A stretch of DNA of 64,000 nt from a virus (IMGVR_UViG_3300044557_000107:75821-139820); one strand, 5' to 3'. Positions 126 through 56,704 are shown, counted from the first letter of the stretch. Notes: generated from the sequence alone by a model not told the origin. Numbers and translations: made by a program.

Positions 126-261
126 CCAATAAAGACAAAGACTAACATGGGCTGGGGCAGCCCTTAGTAAATAGCCATAACCTCTATTTAGTACTCTAGT
201 AGTATTAAACAAGTATGTGGTGTTCCTAGAAACCTGTGTTTTTAAACACAGTGTAGTTCAT
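126..261 (+). ncRNA. omega-RNA scaffold / IS605 right end ending TCAT
   Basis: GGGCTGGGGCAGCCC hairpin, TTAGTAAATAG, GTTCCTAGAAA, CTGTGTT-TTTA-AACACAG hairpin, TAGTTCAT; homologous to 54246-54375. Confidence 0.85.
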
Positions 262-3236
262 TTCGGACGAGCAACATCTCCCGAAAATTTACCCCACCAA
301 TAACTTGTAGTCGCATCAAATTTTGAAAGCCCTGTTGAAGTATTATCAGCAATACACATGTTATTACCGATATATATTCCTACATGCCCCCGGGTTCCAC
401 TAGTATTCCAGAATACCAAGTCACCTTCTTTAAGATTTTTCCAGACATCACTTTTATCGCTTCCACTAACATGAGACAACACGGAGCTACTCCACATACT
501 GTTTGTAGTTCCAATAGTAGAACCTGTTAGTGGATCACCAATGTCTTTATATAACCAACACATTGTGGACGAGCAATCTGCACTGGCGCCCGTTGTTGAG
601 AATATGTCTTGGCTACCCCTACCGGCTCCTATAACATACCTAATAGACCCTTGACCATTCTTATTATAATAGCTTGTGATTTTGCTTACAGCCGCTTGCG
701 CCGCTGCTGTACCAGACTTAGTAGACCCATCAGATGAACTTGAATCGCTAGAGGAGCTACTAGACTCATCAACAGACCATGCCATATTACTAAAGGTAGC
801 TTCACCCATTAGTCCTCCTTGGAAGTCTGATGATTGCCCCCATAGGTTATTAAACCGATATTGGCCACTTTGGGGAAGACCTCTAGTAACACCAAGGGTA
901 GTTTCCCAACCGGACTGAAATGAGAAGCTATGAGAGACGGATTCAATATAAAATTCAAAGGTATCATTATAGTTATTTAGATATACAGTAACACGGTCCC
1001 CAACTCGGTAATCTGGATGACCTACGACAACAATATCTCCGCTATAAAAATTAGGGTTATCGGCATACCAATTGAATAATCTTTGTGTAAACTTTTTAAG
1101 GGAACTAGCAGAGCTATCTATTGTAGATGCATTAGTTGTTTTTGTAGTAGAACCTTTTACAATACTTTCTAGGTCCTTTTTAGATAGCTTATTACCTCCG
1201 TTATGATACTGATCCCATATAGCTAGTAATTCATTATCATCTACATTTTTTAGGGTGGACTTAGCTAATTTCATATAGTCTACAATGTCGCCTTTAGAAT
1301 CACTAATAACCTTTTTTACATTAGACACATTTAAGGCTTTAGTTCCGGTATTAGCATATCCCCCACCTTGTGAAATGTGCATATCGTCATTCCACTTAGT
1401 AGTAGGAAGTTGAAAGTCATTGTTGATATAATCATTAATTAAATTTACAGCCTCTTGTGCTGAAATATTATTAGCACTATTTGTAAGGTTTTGAGCATAC
1501 GTAGCTTTATTAATTCGTAATAAATTACGGTCAATAGCATTTAAGAAGGCTACAGTTGAATCATACGTGTAGGTAGTACCATGTTCAGCACTATCCGTGT
1601 CACCTTTACTATAATCAGAATTACTACCGGATTCTGCATCACCCATGCTGAGATACTGATTAGTTTTTTCAAGGTAGCTGTACCCATACTGATCAACTAA
1701 AGTTTGATTATACTGGGGGTAGGACCCAATTGCTCCTGAGTTATTAGTGATACTGAACAAAGAGTAACTATCAGGATTTACGTTGAATACAGAGTAAGCC
1801 TGTGCATTTGACTGGTTAACAGTAACGTTTTTTATAGACCCAGAATCAATCTCAATAGTCTCTAAAGAATTCCAATCATCAGGATCGAAAGGGGTTCTAC
1901 GTACATTTACATGACACAGCCCCGTAGACTCAAATTCAAAATAGAGTTCATTGAAAGGTTCTACACGAATATCATCCATAAGTTCTAATAGAGATCCACT
2001 AAATGAGGTGTACTGAGTAGAGTCTGTTAGTTTTTCATCAACATCCCAACTTTGAAAATTACTGGTATCTAAAAAGTCAAAGATAGTTTTGGAGCCGTTA
2101 TCATAACTATAGTTTATATAGGGCTTGAAACGTTCTATAATTTCATTTTCAATGGTAGCTACATCATTACCCATAAATGCAACGCCAGTACTATTCTCTT
2201 TTTCGGAGTCGATAGAACTAGAAGAAGCATCTACATTTCCTGATGTAGACCCACTGCTATCGCTACTACCAGAAGATGAACTACTATCATCACCGGAAGA
2301 ATCTCCGCCATTATACTCAGCGTAACCAGTTTCTAGGTTTTTTGTGTAATGAGCTAAGTTATCTCCAAAGTAGTTATGTGCTTTAAGAATTTGGGCAAAT
2401 TGAGGAATACTAGTAGCATTTTGAACACCATCATTATAGAGAGTTGTGGCATAATCACTAGCATAAGCACTCCATGAAGAATATTTATAGCTAGGTCCTA
2501 CATGCATACCTGTTAGATTTTTAGAAGAGTATGCGGGGGCTCCTGGTTGGTCTTTTCCTCCGGATTCTGCCATGATTTGAGCAAATACATATCCCGACTT
2601 AAGCCCAATAGCTTTAGTGACGGCTTTATCAATAGCACGTGCAATAGGCTTACCGGGTCCTGCGTTAGTATCTACATTGACCGTTATTTTTTTACCCGAG
2701 GTTGACGAAGATGTATTTGTAGAACTATCATCGCTATCACCAGATGAGCTAGATTCTGCTTCATAATCCGCATTTGTATCCCATAGCCATCCCATATTTG
2801 AAAGGTTAACTTGGGCTTCTTCAATAAGTCCTAATTTATACTGAGAGAATACTTTAGATAAGCTTTGACCCGTGATTTGATAATATAAATTGTTATTTTC
2901 AAATTCGCCAATAATGTCTATTTCAGAAACCATGCCCACGAAAATAACATTATTATTAACAGTACCAATATTAGCACTTCCAACACCCATATTTGGATCT
3001 GCTCGAATAATAATGATATCGTTTTCATTAACAACATAATCCCACCGGTAGTCTCCAGCAAGCATAACAGAAAATGCAGGGGAATCCAACGACATATCAT
3101 TTGAAGTACTCAATCCAAGCAATCCTTTAGTTAAGGTGTCATTTGATAGGGTGTCGTCTGAATAACTAATCTGGTACCCATTAGACGAACTATGGATTTC
3201 TAATGAAAAGTTAGGAAACATTATGTTGTTTGCCAA
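258..3236 (-). CDS. Tail-associated lysin / baseplate hub with internal lysozyme-like domain and C-terminal NlpC/P60
   Basis: Directly after tape measure; AQIMAESGG lysozyme-like motif between Ser-rich linkers; C-terminal DCSS...GHVGIYIG NlpC/P60 motif. Confidence 0.85.
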   Translation of the reverse strand: MANNIMFPNFSLEIHSSSNGYQISYSDDTLSNDTLTKGLLGLSTSNDMSLDSPAFSVMLAGDYRWDYVVNENDIIIIRADPNMGVGSANIGTVNNNVIFVGMVSEIDIIGEFENNNLYYQITGQSLSKVFSQYKLGLIEEAQVNLSNMGWLWDTNADYEAESSSSGDSDDSSTNTSSSTSGKKITVNVDTNAGPGKPIARAIDKAVTKAIGLKSGYVFAQIMAESGGKDQPGAPAYSSKNLTGMHVGPSYKYSSWSAYASDYATTLYNDGVQNATSIPQFAQILKAHNYFGDNLAHYTKNLETGYAEYNGGDSSGDDSSSSSGSSDSSGSTSGNVDASSSSIDSEKENSTGVAFMGNDVATIENEIIERFKPYINYSYDNGSKTIFDFLDTSNFQSWDVDEKLTDSTQYTSFSGSLLELMDDIRVEPFNELYFEFESTGLCHVNVRRTPFDPDDWNSLETIEIDSGSIKNVTVNQSNAQAYSVFNVNPDSYSLFSITNNSGAIGSYPQYNQTLVDQYGYSYLEKTNQYLSMGDAESGSNSDYSKGDTDSAEHGTTYTYDSTVAFLNAIDRNLLRINKATYAQNLTNSANNISAQEAVNLINDYINNDFQLPTTKWNDDMHISQGGGYANTGTKALNVSNVKKVISDSKGDIVDYMKLAKSTLKNVDDNELLAIWDQYHNGGNKLSKKDLESIVKGSTTKTTNASTIDSSASSLKKFTQRLFNWYADNPNFYSGDIVVVGHPDYRVGDRVTVYLNNYNDTFEFYIESVSHSFSFQSGWETTLGVTRGLPQSGQYRFNNLWGQSSDFQGGLMGEATFSNMAWSVDESSSSSSDSSSSDGSTKSGTAAAQAAVSKITSYYNKNGQGSIRYVIGAGRGSQDIFSTTGASADCSSTMCWLYKDIGDPLTGSTIGTTNSMWSSSVLSHVSGSDKSDVWKNLKEGDLVFWNTSGTRGHVGIYIGNNMCIADNTSTGLSKFDATTSYWWGKFSGDVARPK

Positions 3237-27070: not shown

Positions 27071-27285
27071 TTGACATTCTGTTTAACTACTAGTATACTA
27101 AGAACCATAAAGAACTTAGGTAACCATAGATGCGAAAACCAAGTATCTTAATAAGTTACTTAAGGATCTTTAAGTAAACTGGGCTGGGACAGCCCTTAGT
27201 AAATAGCTGTAACCTATAGATACTTTAGAGTATCCAAGTACGCAGTGTTCCTAGAAGCTCGTCACTTTAGTAACGAGCAGTTCAC
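27071..27285 (+). ncRNA. Orphan omega-RNA copy 1 with own sigma-A promoter (no tnpB)
   Basis: TTGACA-17-TATACT, 5' stem-loop, then GGGCTGGGACAGCCCTTAGTAAATAG...GTTCCTAGAAGC-hairpin-AGTTCAC homologous to scaffolds at 126-261 and 54246-54375. Confidence 0.8.
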
Positions 27286-27453
27286 TGCCCACCAGTACCT
27301 CCTGTCAAGGGTTATTGAAAACTGGTGTAAAACTAATATGTCGCGTCCAGTAATATGACTGGGGTGGGATGACTAAGGGTTGACACCTAACAAGACTGTC
27401 CGTTATCCTACATATTAGCAGGTAACCTTTGAGAGGCTTTGGGTTACCACAAT

Positions 27454-27683: not shown

Positions 27684-27921
27684 ATTTAAGAAAACATGTT
27701 ACTTTAGTTGACATTCTGTTAACTAGGGGTATACTAAAAACTATAAAGAACTTAGGTAACCATAGATGCGAAAACCAAGTATCTTAATAAGTTACTTAAG
27801 GATCTTTAAGTAAACTGGGCTGGGACAGCCCTTAGTAAATAGCTGTAACCTCTATGTGCTTTAGGGTACTCAAGCATGCAGTGTTCCTAGAAGCCCGTTA
27901 CTTTAGTAATGAGTAGTTCAC
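27677..27921 (+). mobile_element. tnpB-less IS605-derived mini-element carrying orphan omega-RNA copy 2
   Basis: Degenerate left-end hairpin (AAGAAAA-CATGTTAC-TTTA-GTTGACAT) after TCTAT, promoter TTGACA-16-TATACT, scaffold identical to copy 1 over ~100 nt, ends GTAGTTCAC. Confidence 0.72.
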
Positions 27922-27935
27922 GGAGGACATATAGT

Positions 27936-45138: not shown

Positions 45139-46527
45139 ATGAAAGAAAAGTTAAACAAGGGGATTAAGGTCAGAATATTTCCTAATGAAGAGCAAGTGGG
45201 ACAAATTAGATTATCATTTATGTGGGCACGGAACTTTTATAACTATCTGGTTGAATACCAGAAAGACTACACCAAAGCTATCTGGATTATGCGAGATCGA
45301 GAAGGTGGATATAGAAAAGATAAGAATGGTAAAGTTATACTATTTGACAAGAAGGGTAATGAAAGTAAAACTGGTAAACCTCAGTTTAAGTATAAGGGAA
45401 ATGTATATCTAAGTAAGTTTGACTTGATGAAGTTAGCTTCACCTTATCGAAAGTTTCATAAAGATGCAGGTGCAAGTAAGGTGGACAGCCACGTTTATGA
45501 AATGACGGCCACTTCATTTTATCAAGCGATTCAAAATCAATATAATCCTAGAATGATTAATGCAAAAGCACCTAAGAAGCATAAATGGGTTACTTCATAT
45601 ACTAGTAGATACACACAAGCGTCTAAGTTTTCATCAACAAAGAAAAGTGGTTCTGTTCCAAGCATGTATAGTGTAACAAAACATTGGGTAAAGGTACCAA
45701 AGTTAGGCATGGTTAAATACTCTGGTTCACAATCATTGAAAAATATTAAGCCAAAGAACTTTACTATTACAGAGGATAAAACAGGTAAATTCTACATGAG
45801 TATTATTATTGAATATCATAAGGATATTAAATCTGTTAAGCCTGTAAAAGTAGTTGGGATTGACTTAGGGTTAGATACTCTAGCTATTACTAGTGAGGGT
45901 AAAAAATATAAGATTATTCCTTTCACTAAGAATCATGAAAGAACCCTAGCAATTAAGAGCAGAAAAGCAAGTAAGAGAAGATTATTCATGGAAACGGTTA
46001 TTGGATCTTCTAAGAATAAGGCAAAGCTGTTTCCACTTACTCAACATGATTTTCCTAGTGTTAATGAAGCATACAGGGGAAGAGCTTTAGTATATAAGCA
46101 CACTGCAAATCAACGAAATAACTATCTTCATGAAGTAAGTAGAAGCATTGTAGATTCTGCTGATGCAGTGGTTGTAGAAGACATTACCGCTAGTTTCATG
46201 ATGAAGGGTGGTAAAAGTAAGAAAACAGGTCGTAAGACTAAGAATAAGAGCGCCAAGAGTGCTAGTAATGCTAGTTGGAACAAGCTATTAGTATATCTAG
46301 AATACAAGTGTAAGGAAGATGGAAAACAGTTTATTAAAGTAAGCAAAAACTATACTAGTCAGATTTGCCATGATTGTGGTTATTTATATGAAAACTTGGG
46401 TGTACCAAATGGTGGTGACAATCGTTCTGTTCGTGAATGGGACTGCCCTAAATGTGGGAAACATCATGATCGTGACATTAATGCGGCTATCAATATTAAA
46501 AATAGAGGGTTAGAAGTTATTGATTAA
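45139..46527 (+). CDS. CRISPR-array-associated TnpB / miniature Cas12-like nuclease (RuvC intact)
   Basis: IKVRIFPNEEQ N-terminus, [32 protein letters not shown]; 462 aa with insertions; no IS ends seen. Confidence 0.85.
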   Translation: MKEKLNKGIKVRIFPNEEQVGQIRLSFMWARNFYNYLVEYQKDYTKAIWIMRDREGGYRKDKNGKVILFDKKGNESKTGKPQFKYKGNVYLSKFDLMKLASPYRKFHKDAGASKVDSHVYEMTATSFYQAIQNQYNPRMINAKAPKKHKWVTSYTSRYTQASKFSSTKKSGSVPSMYSVTKHWVKVPKLGMVKYSGSQSLKNIKPKNFTITEDKTGKFYMSIIIEYHKDIKSVKPVKVVGIDLGLDTLAITSEGKKYKIIPFTKNHERTLAIKSRKASKRRLFMETVIGSSKNKAKLFPLTQHDFPSVNEAYRGRALVYKHTANQRNNYLHEVSRSIVDSADAVVVEDITASFMMKGGKSKKTGRKTKNKSAKSASNASWNKLLVYLEYKCKEDGKQFIKVSKNYTSQICHDCGYLYENLGVPNGGDNRSVREWDCPKCGKHHDRDINAAINIKNRGLEVID

Positions 46528-46542
46528 TTTTAAAAATAAGTA

Positions 46543-46571
46543 TTGACATAAGGATTATTAAGAGGTATTAT
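46543..46571 (+). promoter_or_regulatory. Promoter for scaffold/array RNA
   Basis: TTGACA-17-TATTAT; shares AAAATAAGTATTGAC.TAAGGAT with promoter at 29906. Confidence 0.75.
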
Positions 46572-46577
46572 AATAGA

Positions 46578-46811
46578 TGTAAGTAAGTCATAAGGTTAAT
46601 CAAGCCTACTAAGAAGTGCAAGTCTTCTAATGACTATATGGGGTTTCTCAATCCTTGGTTAACTACGGGTTCCGTGAGCTATAGATGTTTTATAGACACT
46701 ACTCAGCATACCCTAAAAACATGATAGGTGTTAATCAAAGCTCAATTTATTGAGTGGGTAATAGCCTATTGAGACCTAGACATTTTAATAGTATAAGTAT
46801 ACTAAATAGGG
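46578..46811 (+). ncRNA. tracrRNA-like / split omega-RNA scaffold with anti-repeat
   Basis: Several hairpins; GGG-TTTCTCAA-TCC-TTGGTTAACTA echoes omega-RNA GGG..CCC-TTAGTAAATA; ACCTAGACATTTTAA (46774-88) is complementary to repeat AAAATGTACTAGGT. Confidence 0.65.
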
Positions 46812-46830
46812 TTTATTAGTCTTAATAACT

Positions 46831-47065
46831 CCCTAGTATGTACTCAAAATGTACTAGGTATGAGATAATTGTAACATAAATTTAATTTACTACTTACCCT
46901 AGTATGTACTCAAAATGTACTAGGTATGAGATGGGCGGTTCACTGGTGTTTATGTACAGTGACTCTAGTATGTACTTAAAATGTTACTAGGTACAAGACA
47001 TTATGTTTGATACGTATTTTAAGGCGTTCCCCTCGTATATATCCAAAATGTGCTAGGCATGAGGT
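46831..47065 (+). CRISPR. Mini CRISPR array: 4 repeats (36-37 nt), 3 spacers (30 nt)
   Basis: Repeat CCCTAGTATGTACTCAAAATGTACTAGGTATGAGAT at 46831 and 46897 (identical), degenerate at 46963 and 47030; unique 30-nt spacers 46867-96, 46933-62, 47000-29. Confidence 0.88.
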
Positions 47066-47100
47066 TTAAAATAAATAAATAATAAGAAAGCAGGAATATA

Positions 47101-47424
47101 ATGGCAATTAGACCAGAATACTATAAAGGCAAATCAGGACATGATATTTTCTGGGATATGGAAAATGGTAAGTACCCTGTGGAATGGGCAATCGGGTTCT
47201 GTGAGATCAACGCGGATAAATATGAAAGACGCCTGGGTAAGAAAACTAAGGATACTACGCTAGACGAGGCTAAGGCCCAGACTTACCGTGAAGAAGCTAG
47301 AAAACTCCGCGAAATTTTTGCAGACGTGCGTAACCGAGGTGTTATTGGTAGAATGTTGCATACGATAAAGATAACACTAGGGAAATTATTGGGAACACCT
47401 CGAAGAACACGAAGAAACAAGTAA
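47101..47424 (+). CDS. DUF3310-like phage protein
   Basis: RP.YY...GFC..N..KY..R.GKK....D..KA..Y. Confidence 0.7.
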   Translation: MAIRPEYYKGKSGHDIFWDMENGKYPVEWAIGFCEINADKYERRLGKKTKDTTLDEAKAQTYREEARKLREIFADVRNRGVIGRMLHTIKITLGKLLGTPRRTRRNK

Positions 47425-52994: not shown

Positions 52995-54375
52995 TTGTTT
53001 AGGGCAAGAAGACACGTTATTTCAATAACGTGATGAATTACTGATTGACAAATATAGCAATAGTAGTATAATAGAGATAAACAAAGGAGGTGAGAATATA
53101 TGTATAAAGGAATTAAACTTCAAATATATCCAAACTTAGAACAGCAACAACAGATAGTTGATAACTTTGGTTGTTGTCGGTTTGTGTGGAATCAGATGTT
53201 AAACATGCAGATTGAAAGGTATAAGAATAACCCAGATAGCAAATTCTTAAATGGATTTGCTATGAATTTTCTGTTAAAACAATTAAAATCTGAACACCCA
53301 TGGTTAAAACAAGTAGATAGTACATCATTACAAGATACTTGTGAAACTCTAGCAGTGACATACCAAAGGTTCTTCAAACATATTGGTAGTTATCCAAAAT
53401 TCAAATCTCGTAAATACCCTAAGAAAAGTTATAAAGCTAAAATGATTACTAATAACATTAGATTAGTGAATAATCATTATCTCAAATTACCTAAGTTAGG
53501 GGTTATGAAGTTTAAAGGTCGCTTAACTACTGACAAGATTAAATCTGCTACAATTAAACTAAGTCCAGCTGGTAAATTCTATTGTGTTTTATTGACTGAA
53601 TGTGAAAACCAAACATTATTTGATAAAACTAACAAGAACGTAGGTTTGGATATGGGTGTAGCAGATTTGGTTATTACTAGTGATGGTATTAAATACCCTA
53701 CTATTAGATTTGATAAAATCTTAGCTAAAAAGAAACATTATTGGGAGAAAAGATTAGCTAGACGTAGATTACAAGCTCAAAGAGAAATGGCAGGGGATAA
53801 ACATAATAAGGTACTAGAGCCTCGTGTATTAGCAGATTTTAAGAATGTTGAGAAAGCTAAAATCATGGTTGCTAAATACAGTGAAAAGATAGCTAATCAG
53901 CGAAAGGATTATCTGCATAAGATAACTACGGATCTAGTTCATCAATATGATGTGATCAAAATTGAAGATTTGAAAACCAAAAATCTTCTAAAGAACCACA
54001 AATTAGCTAGAGCTATTGCAAACCAAAGTTGGAGAGAACTCCGAAGTATGCTGGAATATAAATGTGAGTGGTATGGAAAACAGTTAGTCACTGTTAACCC
54101 TAGAAAGACTAGTCAAATTTGTAGTAACTGTGGTTATGATGATGGTAAGCATGAGTTAAATATTAGACAGTGGACGTGCCCTAAATGTGGTACCAACCAT
54201 GATAGAGATATAAATGCAGCAATTAATATCCTACAAGCATCATAAATACAAAGACTAACATGGGATGGGACAGCCCTTAGTAAATAGAGTAAACCGCTGT
54301 TTAGTATTACTAGTAATACTAGATAAGTTATGCTTGTTCCTAGAAGCTCGGTACTTTAGTACCGATGTAGTTCAC
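52995..54375 (+). mobile_element. tnpB-only IS200/IS605 element inserted 3' of TTTAT
   Basis: Left-end hairpin AAGA-CACGTTAT-ttca-ATAACGTG; right end GAAG-CTCGGTAC-ttta-GTACCGA...TTCAC; no tnpA. Confidence 0.88.
53100..54245 (+). CDS. tnpB: TnpB, RuvC intact
   Basis: [40 protein letters not shown]. Confidence 0.95.
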   Translation: MYKGIKLQIYPNLEQQQQIVDNFGCCRFVWNQMLNMQIERYKNNPDSKFLNGFAMNFLLKQLKSEHPWLKQVDSTSLQDTCETLAVTYQRFFKHIGSYPKFKSRKYPKKSYKAKMITNNIRLVNNHYLKLPKLGVMKFKGRLTTDKIKSATIKLSPAGKFYCVLLTECENQTLFDKTNKNVGLDMGVADLVITSDGIKYPTIRFDKILAKKKHYWEKRLARRRLQAQREMAGDKHNKVLEPRVLADFKNVEKAKIMVAKYSEKIANQRKDYLHKITTDLVHQYDVIKIEDLKTKNLLKNHKLARAIANQSWRELRSMLEYKCEWYGKQLVTVNPRKTSQICSNCGYDDGKHELNIRQWTCPKCGTNHDRDINAAINILQAS

Positions 54376-54446
54376 CGAACTTGTGGAGTCTACCCGATGG
54401 GCATATTCTAAGTATAGTTAGGATTGAGAAGGAAGGTGATTAGAAT

Positions 54447-55432: not shown

Positions 55433-56704
55433 TTGAAAAGTACAGCTAAGAACTATAAATCAATTACTGTTCGACTATACCCTAGTAAATCTCAAGAAGA
55501 TAAATTAAATCTAATCTTAGACCTTACTAAAGATTATAATAATACACTTATTAGGACTTTTAAAGAACGCCGTAGAAATATTGAGAGAAGTCCCTTGGAT
55601 AGAAAGTTAAAGCCCCGATTAGTACCAAATAAGATTAGCTTGTCCTACGTAAACACCGAGTATCTAAAAGAGTATCCGGTTTTTGAAATCGCCGGAACGA
55701 TCAACATTAAAGAAACAGCTAATAACGTTCTTGATGGATTCCTTAAGTATTATAGCCATACCCCGCATTTTAAAGTGTCCCCACCCGTGATTAAGAAAAG
55801 TAGTTACTCATATAATACTCGATTAGGTAAACGCAAGCACCTAGTAGTAGCTGATGCTAACAGTAAGTACCTACAAATTTCATTACCGAGTCTGGGGTTA
55901 GTGGCATGTACCAACAGTTCCCGACTTGCAAAGTTACCAGGAAAAGCCTACTTTTGTACTGTCTACAAGAATCGCCTTAATCATTTTTACCTAGCAATTA
56001 ATGTTCCGGGTGAGGTCACAAGTACAAAAAAGTGTCTTCCAGGGACTTCATTAAGCACTTTAAGTAAATCTAATAAAGTAGCCACCGTTGTGCTAGGCGT
56101 TAATCCTATGGCAAAAGTCTATGTTAATCAACAATGTGTAAAAACGTATTATCGTAGATCTAGTAAATATAATAGTCAGGTACAACAGTATAAACACCAG
56201 TTAGTAAAGTTTCGCAAGTCGGGCAGTAGTTCTCACTCTAAGCGGCAGATTAAGCGGTATCAAGAGACTTTAAGATTATATAACAAGTATTGTTTGAAAG
56301 AGCTTCATAGTAAACAAGATTACCTGCATAAAGTCTCTAAGGAACTTAGTCAAACCTATGATGTGGTTATTATTAACCGACCATATATGACGCATGATAA
56401 CGCTAAAAAGCTCCCTATTAGACTAACGATGGCTCGAAAACAGACCGGACTAAACATGCTCATTAAATATTTGGAATACAAAATGAGTTCATCCCATAAG
56501 ATACTTTTAAAAGTAACCTATAAGGATATTAGTAAATGGTCTTGTTCAGTATGTGGATTTAACAGCCAATACAATTTGATGTTAGAACCCAAGGAACTAA
56601 TCCAAATAACTTCATGGGTCTGTCCCCATTGTGGAACCCGACTGGATGTGAAGGACAATCTGGCGGCAAACATGCTTAAGTATGTAAACAAAACTATATC
56701 TTGA
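55433..56704 (+). CDS. Nuclease-dead TnpB homolog (TldR-like)
   Basis: ITVRLYPS..Q, LPSLG.V, DYLHKVS..L...YD, L..YLEYK, CSVC/CPHC; RuvC positions read ATVVLG (D>V), IINR (E>N), DVKDNLAAN (D>K). Confidence 0.75.
   Translation: MKSTAKNYKSITVRLYPSKSQEDKLNLILDLTKDYNNTLIRTFKERRRNIERSPLDRKLKPRLVPNKISLSYVNTEYLKEYPVFEIAGTINIKETANNVLDGFLKYYSHTPHFKVSPPVIKKSSYSYNTRLGKRKHLVVADANSKYLQISLPSLGLVACTNSSRLAKLPGKAYFCTVYKNRLNHFYLAINVPGEVTSTKKCLPGTSLSTLSKSNKVATVVLGVNPMAKVYVNQQCVKTYYRRSSKYNSQVQQYKHQLVKFRKSGSSSHSKRQIKRYQETLRLYNKYCLKELHSKQDYLHKVSKELSQTYDVVIINRPYMTHDNAKKLPIRLTMARKQTGLNMLIKYLEYKMSSSHKILLKVTYKDISKWSCSVCGFNSQYNLMLEPKELIQITSWVCPHCGTRLDVKDNLAANMLKYVNKTIS

What the first reader, a model, noticed from the sequence alone, without database searches (positions are those of the whole stretch)
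46578..46866. The RNA ahead of the array looks like an omega-RNA split into tracrRNA plus repeat
Seen: the omega-RNAs of one family in this window share GGG-loop-(G)CCC-TTAGTAAATA ... CCTAGA-[terminal hairpin]-GTTCA(C/T). The pre-array RNA has GGG-TTTCTCAA-TCC-TTGGTTAACTA (from ~46641) and CCTAGA-CATTTTAA (46775-88). Its loop TCTCA is complementary to the repeat 3' end TGAGA, just as the loop GTCAA pairs with terminal TTGAC in the 34057 element. ACCTAG-ACATTTT pairs with repeat AAAATGT-A-CTAGGT. Inference: the terminal hairpin of the ancestral omega-RNA was split, so each repeat supplies its 3' arm and the pseudoknot strand. Pairing to the 3' half of the repeat fits type V geometry (handle 5' of spacer). 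TCTCAAT can also pair in cis with ATTGAGA (46768-74), a possible alternative fold.
Basis: partly seen in the sequence, partly recalled or inferred. Interest (0 to 1): 0.85.

Follow-up and report, generated by a model that had tools for sequence, protein, structure and literature searches.

The report
Phage TnpB guide RNA, split form
A large phage carries a small transposon-derived DNA cutter whose one-piece guide RNA has been opened in its last hairpin, so that the repeats of a four-repeat CRISPR-like array supply the missing strand; sister phages still carry the unsplit RNA, which lets the split be mapped to the base, but the principle itself was published in 2025 (TranC).

Summary

- **Conserved RNA:** 46578-46804 is a promoter-driven structured RNA with 92% of cells paired, 8 compensatory pairs and 0/500 shuffles reaching the observed score.
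- **Unsplit relatives:** two metagenome contigs (L017, L018) carry the same scaffold (139-159 bits to my model) as a one-piece omegaRNA. It ends in a 5-bp terminal hairpin, a TGAGA tail and a guide.
- **The split:** the window differs by a 70-nt insert inside that hairpin's loop (46779-46848). The upstream RNA keeps the 5' arm. Each repeat's last 18 nt are the old loop, 3' arm and tail.
- **Other forms:** sister phages show the split form and two different re-fused forms.

Weak points:
- The anti-repeat pairing alone is only marginally above chance (p about 0.03-0.1).
- Both inter-RNA helices are invariant, so they show no covariation.
- The likeness to the window's own omegaRNA family is not detectable with a covariance model.
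- There are no expression data and no spacer target.
- The cis ATTGAGA occurs only in this clade.

This is a new lineage of the known TranC kind (Jin et al., Cell 2025). The scan has already followed up at least eight similar phage loci on other DNA.

The parts
45139..46527 (+). 462-aa TnpB-derived nuclease (P0001). The RuvC residues D242, E347 and D446 and the zinc finger are intact. It carries four insertions relative to roughly 380-aa TnpBs.
   Evidence: The Pfam hits are OrfB_IS605, Cas12f1-like_TNB and HTH_OrfB_IS605. The closest solved structure is ISDra2 TnpB at E 5e-26, while LaTranC reaches only 1e-12.
46543..46571 (+). Sigma-70-type promoter of the scaffold RNA, TTGACA-17-TATTAT.
   Evidence: It matches 11 of 12 consensus positions, and no terminator-like site lies in 46400-47200. 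The same promoter sits ahead of the RNA in L001, L012, L014, L018 and L011.
46578..46636 (+). 5' extension domain: an outer helix (46585-91 with 46630-36) enclosing two small hairpins.
   Evidence: helices 1-3. It is present in RNA types A and B and absent in type C (L017, L015).
46641..46654 (+). Stem-loop 1: a 4-bp stem with the loop TTCTCA (46645-50). The loop is the proposed pseudoknot acceptor.
   Evidence: It is paired in all 10 sequences, with one A-U to G-U change (helix 4). In the unsplit RNA the loop is complementary to the tail TGAGA, and in the window to repeat positions 31-35.
46655..46738 (+). Long-range helix P2 (46655-63 with 46730-38) enclosing the P3 three-part hairpin and P4 (46712-15 with 46725-28).
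   Evidence: P3 has 4 pairs with compensatory changes and P2 is 98% paired.
46740..46767 (+). Hairpins P5 (46740-45 with 46750-55) and P6 (46756-59 with 46764-67).
   Evidence: In P5, 4 of 6 pairs change on both sides and all cells stay paired.
46768..46774 (+). ATTGAGA, a 7-nt cis complement of the stem-loop 1 loop. It is found only in RNA type A.
   Evidence: helix 1: paired in the 4 type A sequences, with 4 of 7 pairs broken in L017 and L018. L011 has AAATAAA at this position.
46774..46786 (+). Anti-repeat. ACCTAG is the 5' arm of the ancestral terminal hairpin, and ACATTTT is an extension of it.
   Evidence: Duplex with repeat positions 16-29, -14.4 kcal/mol. The cofold minimum-energy structure contains it. 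The same strand forms the hairpin in cis in L017, L018, L001 and L014.
46789..46804 (+). Small A/U-rich hairpin after the anti-repeat.
   Evidence: A hairpin of different sequence sits at the same place in L011. It is not a terminator by the scan.
46805..46830 (+). 26-nt stretch between the scaffold and repeat 1. It is either a leader or the decayed remains of a first 3' arm, tail and guide.
   Evidence: It is identical in L012 and L013. In alignment A8 it lies opposite the 3' arm, tail and guide of the unsplit and fused forms.
46831..47065 (+). Array of four repeats (46831-66, 46897-932, 46963-99, 47030-65) and three 30-nt spacers (46867-96, 46933-62, 47000-29). The last 18 nt of each repeat correspond to the old loop, 3' arm and tail. 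The last repeat is degenerate.
   Evidence: The consensus of 12 repeats from 6 loci conserves CCCTAGT, AAATG and CTAGG and varies at positions 8-16.

Best explanation
**What it is.** 46578-46804 is the scaffold (tracrRNA-like part) of a TnpB-type guide RNA. Its terminal hairpin has been opened by a 70-nt insert (46779-46848).

**Proposed mechanism**
1. The RNA is transcribed from the promoter at 46543-71, probably together with the array.
2. It supplies stem-loop 1, P2-P6 and the 5' arm of the terminal stem (46774-86).
3. Each repeat supplies, in its last 21 nt, the 3' arm (AAAATGT-A-CTAGGT) and the guide-adjacent tail (TGAGA).
4. By analogy with ISDra2 omegaRNA and Cas12f, the tail pairs with the stem-loop 1 loop (46646-50) to form the pseudoknot.
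5. The 30-nt spacer that follows is the guide for the 462-aa nuclease at 45139-46527.

**Shown:** the conserved fold, homology with unsplit RNAs, the exact breakpoint and the complementarities.

**Inferred:** that the pieces act in trans for repeats 2-4, the pseudoknot, processing of the transcript and DNA cleavage.
For: - **Structured, conserved RNA.** 92.1% of cells are paired against 32-49% when partners are slid. Eight pairs change on both sides. The covariation score is 0.076 against at most 0.035 for the slid versions, and 0/500 shuffles reach it. The figures are similar on the six full-length sequences. Only ORFs of 28 aa or fewer lie here.
- **Unsplit homologues.** L018 scores 159 bits and L017 139 bits to the scaffold model. 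They end in a 5-bp hairpin, the TGAGA tail and a guide.
- **The breakpoint.** Both the window and L011 carry exactly 70 nt between ACCTA and ATGTAC.
- **Same site in sister phages.** L018 (unsplit) and the L011 upstream copy (split) are 91% identical in the scaffold. They share a promoter and both lie right after the PnuC gene.
- **Natural cis fusions.** L001 and L014 show that the two strands form one helix. The junctions share only 5-7 nt, too little to be assembly artefacts.
- **Repeat conservation.** The repeat consensus conserves AAATG and CTAGG, which pair with the anti-repeat, while the middle of the repeat varies.
- **Energetics.** In all 12 repeats the duplex with the cognate anti-repeat is more stable than the repeat's own hairpin. 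The cofold minimum-energy structure contains both proposed helices.
- **Nuclease.** It is intact and syntenic in relatives, and the complete phage genome has no TnpA.
- **Published precedent.** The architecture is described in PMC10097598 (pseudoknot formed by -5..-3 with -103..-105; stem 4 corresponds to repeat:anti-repeat 2). RNA splitting in TranC is described by Jin et al. 2025, as cited in PMC13565253 and PMC13639567.
Against:
- The anti-repeat duplex alone is only marginally better than chance.
- Both inter-RNA helices are nearly invariant, so they carry no covariation.
- The proposed pseudoknot is only 4-5 bp.
- Each repeat can fold on itself (-5 to -16 kcal/mol), and its arms are conserved.
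- In this clade a better cis partner for the loop exists (7 bp, 46768-74).
- No protospacer was found, and the phage has no cas1 or cas2.
- Sister loci show that such modules decay (L011 downstream copy, L020).
Confidence: 0.7

Rival explanations
1. The pseudoknot is made in cis in this clade. The tracr's own ATTGAGA (46768-74) occupies the stem-loop 1 loop, so the repeat contributes only the 3' arm of the terminal stem and its TGAGA tail is a vestige. Alternatively, the cis pairing is a placeholder that the crRNA displaces. This is a variant of the main explanation and does not exclude it.
For: The cis pairing is 7 perfect pairs, against 4-5 for the repeat tail. RNAalifold chooses it for the four type A sequences. 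The 8-nt stretch differs at 4 positions from types B and C, in an otherwise 75-79% identical RNA, and the result is an exact complement of the loop.
Against: It is absent from the unsplit RNAs and from the split L011 form, which must use the tail if they form any pseudoknot. Internal repeats keep the (G/A)AGA tail, while all four terminal repeats have lost it. In ISDra2 the pseudoknot strand is the one joined to the guide (PMC10097598).
Confidence: 0.2
2. The repeats are self-contained hairpin handles, as in tracr-independent Cas12 crRNAs. In this view the complementarity to 46774-86 is only a by-product of the repeat's palindrome, and the upstream RNA joins through protein or the short pseudoknot alone.
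For: Each repeat folds into a 6-10-bp hairpin. Both arms (CCCTAGT and CTAGG) are conserved while the loop middle varies. L014 repeat 1 has lost the AAATG extension but keeps both arms.
Against: AAATG, which lies in the loop under this model, is conserved in 11 of 12 repeats. The position that is bulged in the duplex model varies freely (A, G, C, or one extra T), while it would break a hairpin pair. The unsplit and fused forms show that the tracr strand is the hairpin's natural 5' arm. TnpB-size proteins need the long scaffold (PMC10097598).
Confidence: 0.1
3. Only a cis guide works. The read-through transcript folds as one long omegaRNA with spacer 1 as its guide, and repeats 2-4 are inert duplications or a decaying relic.
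For: No terminator or promoter lies between scaffold and array. The minimum-energy fold of the read-through RNA pairs the anti-repeat with repeat 1. L001, L014, L017 and L018 are cis forms. Related modules decay.
Against: Spacers are uniformly 30 nt and differ among near-identical phages. One spacer is shared and one is present as a diverged allele. Internal repeats keep handle and tail while only the last repeat degenerates.
Confidence: 0.08

Closest known systems
TranC systems (transposon-CRISPR intermediates). Source: Jin et al., Cell 2025, pmid 41027434. The paper is not held in the library; I know it through PMC13565253, PMC13639567 and bioRxiv 10.64898/2026.03.27.714800.
   Same: [quoted passage not shown] Repeat length (32-38 nt) and repeat number (3-5) are typical. 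Phage-borne examples are already known (CauTranC9).
   Different: The effector is a separate lineage: LaTranC matches only at E 1e-12 over the RuvC C-terminus, and ISDra2 TnpB is closer. Only two close protein clusters exist among 5.8 billion sequences. Here unsplit, split and re-fused versions of the same RNA are found in sister phages. I could not compare it with the other published clades because their sequences are not on hand.
ISDra2 TnpB omegaRNA (PDB 8H1J, 8EXA; PMC10097598).
   Same: The order of elements matches: 5' stem-loop, long-range helix with an internal domain, terminal hairpin, short tail pairing back to the 5' region (pseudoknot), then the guide. The unsplit L017 and L018 RNAs have exactly this layout.
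   Different: There is no detectable sequence similarity. The RNA here has its own promoter after the stop codon instead of overlapping the gene. In the window the terminal loop carries the 70-nt insert and an array follows.
Cas12f (Cas14a) tracrRNA:crRNA (PDB 7C7L).
   Same: The repeat's guide-proximal end pairs with an internal tracr site (repeat:anti-repeat 1, the pseudoknot). Its more 5' part pairs with the tracr 3' end (repeat:anti-repeat 2), as described in PMC10097598.
   Different: The protein is only distantly related (E 8e-5, zinc-finger region only). Whether this nuclease forms a dimer is unknown. The repeats here are palindromic.

Membership tests
TranC (transposon-CRISPR intermediate) | Effector of TnpB size and fold with an intact RuvC. 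| tested here: met
   The protein is 462 aa with the three TnpB Pfam domains. D242, E347 and D446 are invariant in the alignment. The best solved relative is ISDra2 TnpB.
TranC (transposon-CRISPR intermediate) | An adjacent CRISPR-type array, with no transposase and no transposon ends. | tested here: met
   There are four repeats of 36-37 nt and three 30-nt spacers. The complete phage genome has no Y1 transposase. The gene sits at a fixed syntenic site after dNK and PnuC in relatives.
TranC (transposon-CRISPR intermediate) | A tracrRNA that is a split omegaRNA/reRNA, with the repeat carrying the remaining part. | tested here: met
   This rests on homology to the unsplit L017 and L018 RNAs and on the 70-nt breakpoint. 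It is sequence evidence only.
TranC (transposon-CRISPR intermediate) | Nuclease activity guided by crRNA plus tracrRNA (and by reRNA). | not testable with these tools
   This needs an interference or cleavage assay.
TranC (transposon-CRISPR intermediate) | Placement in one of the published clades. | tested here: inconclusive
   Only LaTranC is available (PDB 9jfo), and it matches weakly at E 1e-12 over residues 313-453. Sequences of the other clades are not on hand.
Canonical type V CRISPR-Cas (e.g. V-F) | An adaptation module (cas1, cas2) in the locus. | tested here: not met
   The complete 139.8-kb genome has no Cas1 or Cas2. This is also common in phage-borne and TranC loci.
IS200/IS605 TnpB-omegaRNA element | A one-piece omegaRNA overlapping or abutting the gene's 3' end, followed by a single guide at the transposon end. 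| tested here: not met
   The RNA has its own promoter 15 nt after the stop codon, and its terminal hairpin is interrupted and followed by an array. Four one-piece omegaRNA copies of another family elsewhere in the window serve as a contrast.

The most novel reading that the evidence does not exclude
In this phage lineage the step from omegaRNA to tracrRNA plus crRNA is a single, still ongoing and reversible indel in the terminal loop. The same RNA occurs in four states:
- unsplit (L018, L017);
- split (window, L012, L011);
- re-fused at one junction (L001);
- re-fused at a different junction (L014).

These lie at one syntenic site, with scaffolds up to 91-99% identical. If so, natural populations sample single-guide and dual-guide forms of one nuclease. 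In addition, the type A scaffold has evolved its own pseudoknot strand (46768-74), acting as a placeholder or switch that the crRNA tail displaces.
Probability: 0.3. Interest if true: 0.65.

Novelty: new member of a known kind. Interest (0 to 1): 0.5.

Why it matters
The origin of tracrRNA and crRNA by splitting a transposon guide RNA was proposed from structures in 2023 and demonstrated for TranC systems in 2025.

This locus adds a very recent natural example:
- The breakpoint can be read to the base.
- The unsplit, split and re-fused states coexist in closely related phages, together with ordinary TnpB/omegaRNA paralogues in the same genome.

That makes it a convenient system for three questions:
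- How little change converts a single-guide nuclease into an array-guided one?
- Can one nuclease use both forms?
- What does a phage do with such a system?

It is also a compact (462 aa) candidate editor with a ready-made natural single-guide design (L014, L001, L018).

Tried and rejected
- **Rfam:** a search of the whole window found only four tRNAs.
- **In-window omegaRNA family:** a covariance model of that family gave no hit on the pre-array RNA, and the reverse search was also empty. Homology to that family is therefore not claimed.
- **Pairing across the whole repeat:** RNAduplex pairs the whole repeat with 46773-46812 (-24.3 kcal/mol, top 5% of shuffles). I rejected this as a conserved feature because repeat positions 8-16 vary within single arrays while the tracr is fixed.
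- **Spacer targets:**
  - No self match in the phage genome.
  - Nothing credible in 50,697 phage records.
  - No exact hit in IMG/VR for two spacers.
  - A 27/30 match of spacer 1 to the Enterococcus phage Revolver protease gene is chance-level (E 0.3), and the spacer has two stop codons in that gene's frame.
- **Collection scans:**
  - IMG/VR scans for the stem-loop 1 motif and for the nuclease found nothing.
  - A scan for the repeat tail gave 5 chance hits.
  - The metagenome and genome scans gave 3 true and 5 chance hits.
- **Protein structure:** the AlphaFold model of the nuclease was poor in the N-terminal half (pLDDT 64.6, pTM 0.44), so I did not use it for fold searches.
- **Direction of change** (unsplit to split, or the reverse) could not be settled:
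  - The compact junction is shared by RNA types B and C.
  - The split junction is shared by types A and B.
  - The RNA and nuclease modules recombine.
  - L001 and L014 are most simply derived from the split form by deletions at 5-7-nt microhomologies. This is parsimony, not proof.

Full report
**Setting**

The window is the right-hand 64 kb of a complete 139.8-kb phage genome with terminal repeats. Its large terminase is 44% identical to those of Herelleviridae-type phages of Firmicutes. Its TnpB paralogues are closest to those of Lactobacillaceae and their phages.

The genome encodes six TnpB-like matches and no Cas1, Cas2 or TnpA.

The gene at 45139-46527 encodes a 462-aa TnpB-family protein with the RuvC residues D242, E347 and D446 and the zinc finger intact. 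It is followed in order by:
- a strong sigma-70-type promoter at 46543-71 (11 of 12 matches);
- about 250 nt without any ORF longer than 28 aa;
- four 36-37-nt repeats separated by three 30-nt spacers.

**Checking the observation**

Taken alone, the anti-repeat pairing is weak evidence. It is 13 bp with one bulge, -14.4 kcal/mol. It is matched or beaten by 2.5% of shuffled handles, 4% of other genomic 169-mers and 10% of random genomic 21-mers.

The proposed likeness to the window's own omegaRNA family (copies near 150, 27180, 27816 and 54262) does not survive a test:
- A covariance model of that family scores its four copies at 124-142 bits and finds nothing in 46578-46830 at E<=10 with filters off.
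- The reverse search is equally empty.
- In that family the CTAG of CCTAGA pairs with the TTAG after stem-loop 1. Here CCTAG turns out to be the 5' arm of the terminal hairpin.

**Relatives**

Among 5.8 billion proteins only two clusters are close to the nuclease, at 92% and 73% identity. Everything else is at most 40% identical.

Their contigs, plus three JGI metagenome contigs found with the stem-loop 1 motif, give ten copies of the RNA. By scaffold identity they fall into three types:

| Type | Copies | Note |
|---|---|---|
| A | window, L001, L012, L014 | 88-99% identical to one another |
| B | L018, and the copy upstream of the nuclease in L011 | 91% identical |
| C | L017, and the partial copy downstream of the nuclease in L015 | 95% identical |

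Decayed copies lie downstream in L011 and L020.

**The RNA is real and structured**

On the ten-sequence alignment my model has stem-loop 1, a 9-bp long-range helix enclosing two inner elements, and two further hairpins. The counts are:
- 92.1% of cells are paired, against 32-49% when partners are slid by 1-3 columns.
- Eight pairs change on both sides.
- The covariation score is 0.076, against at most 0.035 for the slid versions.
- No shuffle out of 500 reaches the observed score.

On the six full-length sequences the figures are 94.4% paired, 8 compensatory pairs and a score of 0.215 against at most 0.108. Hairpin P5 (46740-55) changes at four of its six pairs and stays fully paired. The promoter is conserved ahead of every intact copy.

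**The split, mapped**

L018 and L017 carry the scaffold as a one-piece omegaRNA. After P6 come the hairpin ACCTA-ATGTAC-TAGGT, the tail ATGAGAC, and then unrelated sequence that serves as the guide. The minimum-energy fold of the L018 RNA pairs the stem-loop 1 loop with that tail and forms the terminal hairpin.

In the window, and independently in L011, exactly 70 nt lie between ACCTA and ATGTAC. These are 46779-46848 in the window and 4824-4893 in L011.

The insert contains four parts:
- a 7-8-nt extension of the 5' arm, which pairs with the AAAATGT now preceding the old loop;
- a small hairpin;
- about 26 nt of spacer-like sequence;
- the 5' part of repeat 1.

Hence the last 18 nt of every repeat are the former loop, 3' arm and tail, identical to L018 except for the final base. 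The upstream RNA keeps the 5' arm.

L018 (unsplit) and the L011 upstream copy (split) lie at the same place, directly after the PnuC gene and behind the same promoter.

**Fused forms**

In L001 and L002 the small hairpin runs straight into the 3' arm and tail. A 30-nt guide and one full repeat follow.

In L014 the scaffold joins the 5' part of a repeat, giving anti-repeat, a 14-nt loop, then repeat. This is a natural single-guide form, and four more repeats follow.

The junctions share only 5-7 nt with their parent sequences. They cannot be k-mer assembly artefacts, and L001 was assembled from two runs.

Because the split junction occurs in both nuclease clades, the simplest reading is that these two forms arose from it by deletion. 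The overall direction (unsplit first) follows from TnpB ancestry and from the identical compact junction in types B and C. Recombination between RNA and nuclease modules blurs the tree: window and L014 are 97% identical in the gene but 90% in the RNA, while L001 and L014 are 87% in the gene and 99% in the RNA.

**The two inter-RNA helices**

Across 12 repeats from six loci, the conserved blocks are CCCTAGT, AAATG and CTAGG(T). Positions 8-16 vary even within one array.

Several points favour pairing with the anti-repeat:
- AAATG would sit in the loop of the repeat's own hairpin, so its conservation favours pairing with ACATTT of the anti-repeat.
- The residue that is bulged in that duplex varies freely.
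- In every repeat the duplex with the cognate anti-repeat is more stable than the repeat's own hairpin.
- The cofold minimum-energy structure contains both proposed helices.

The tail is (G/A)AGA in all internal repeats and is lost (GG) in all four terminal repeats. This fits a functional guide-adjacent strand and the leader-proximal orientation.

Both helices are otherwise invariant, so there is no covariation test. The L011 loop change (C to T) keeps the pair only as G-U.

**The cis alternative**

ATTGAGA at 46768-74 pairs perfectly with the loop of stem-loop 1 (with its 3' neighbour) in the four type A RNAs. Types B and C have A(A/G)ATAAA there, which breaks 4 of the 7 pairs.

It is therefore not part of the ancestral fold and is not needed for a split form. 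Four substitutions producing an exact 7-nt complement suggest selection, perhaps for a self-folded scaffold or a switch. I cannot decide between this and a trans pseudoknot.

**Transcription**

No terminator-like site and no good second promoter lie between the scaffold and the array. The primary transcript therefore probably contains the scaffold, repeat 1 and the rest of the array, and repeat 1 can still close the terminal stem in cis. That the scaffold acts in trans on repeats 2-4 is inference.

**Array biology**

Spacers are uniformly 30 nt and differ among near-identical phages. Window spacer 3 is identical to an L014 spacer. Window spacer 2 has an L014 counterpart that differs by six transitions, four of them synonymous in one frame. 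No protospacer was found.

**Comparison with what is known**

The layout matches the ISDra2 omegaRNA and the Cas12f dual guide, as described in PMC10097598, which also proposed the splitting hypothesis. Functional splitting in natural TnpB-to-Cas12 intermediates (TranC) was published by Jin et al. (Cell 2025; cited in PMC13565253 and PMC13639567). Phage-borne TranC systems are reported in bioRxiv 10.64898/2026.03.27.714800.

The effector here is a separate lineage, nearer to ISDra2 TnpB than to LaTranC. The scan has already followed up at least eight comparable phage loci on other DNA.

I therefore class this as a new member of a known kind. It is made more useful than most by the side-by-side unsplit, split and re-fused states.

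**Limits**
- There are no RNA data, no activity data and no target.
- Only about ten RNA copies are available, in three closely related types.
- Several contigs are short and end inside repeated sequence.
- The paper defining TranC was not available to read.

Noticed in passing
window 46933-46962 vs L014 2449-2478: Window spacer 2 and an L014 spacer are alleles. They differ by six transitions, four of them synonymous in one reading frame (A-V-H/Y-W-C-L-C-T-V). This suggests the same site of a protein-coding target was sampled from two diverged genomes. The order of the shared spacers also differs between the two arrays.
   Followed up: partly
L018 2107-2447: A stand-alone, promoter-driven, unsplit omegaRNA with a guide lies directly after the PnuC gene. 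No nuclease gene is next to it, although the window has its nuclease at this place.
   Followed up: partly
L011 4560-5000 and 6366-6541; L003 1-121 and 1484-1576: In the 73% clade the nuclease gene is flanked by two RNA modules. Upstream is a scaffold plus a two-repeat array, with different spacers in L011 and L003. Downstream is a second scaffold with its own promoter, which is decayed in L011 and L020.
   Followed up: partly
L017 7545-7830 (minus strand): The unsplit omegaRNA starts immediately after a tRNA-like gene that ARAGORN does not call; its acceptor and T arms are visible. The 11-nt tail motif AGGTATGAGAC recurs 22 nt downstream, just before the terminase start codon.
   Followed up: no
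window 142-266, 27174-27290, 27810-27926, 54255-54380: In the other omegaRNA family, the 5-7 nt just 5' of stem-loop 1 seem to co-vary with the 3' tail next to the guide: AACAT with (A/G)TGT in two copies, AACTG with CAGTT or TAGTT in the other two. This would be that family's pseudoknot. Two of the copies are stand-alone genes inside the tRNA cluster.
   Followed up: no
window 45139-46804 vs L014 and L001: The locus is a mosaic. Window and L014 nuclease genes are 97% identical but their scaffold RNAs only 90%. L001 and L014 scaffolds are 99% identical but their genes only 87%. This points to recombination between the nuclease and RNA modules.
   Followed up: partly
window 47030-47065; L014 2565-2599; L011 4945-4980; L003 61-95: All four terminal repeats keep CCCTAG, AAATG and CTAGG but have replaced the GAGA tail with a GG-containing end. 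All eight internal repeats keep (G/A)AGA.
   Followed up: partly
window 55433-56704: A fourth TnpB-like ORF (423 aa) has only weak Pfam matches (Cas12f1-like_TNB at 30 bits) and no room for a downstream RNA. I did not examine it.
   Followed up: no
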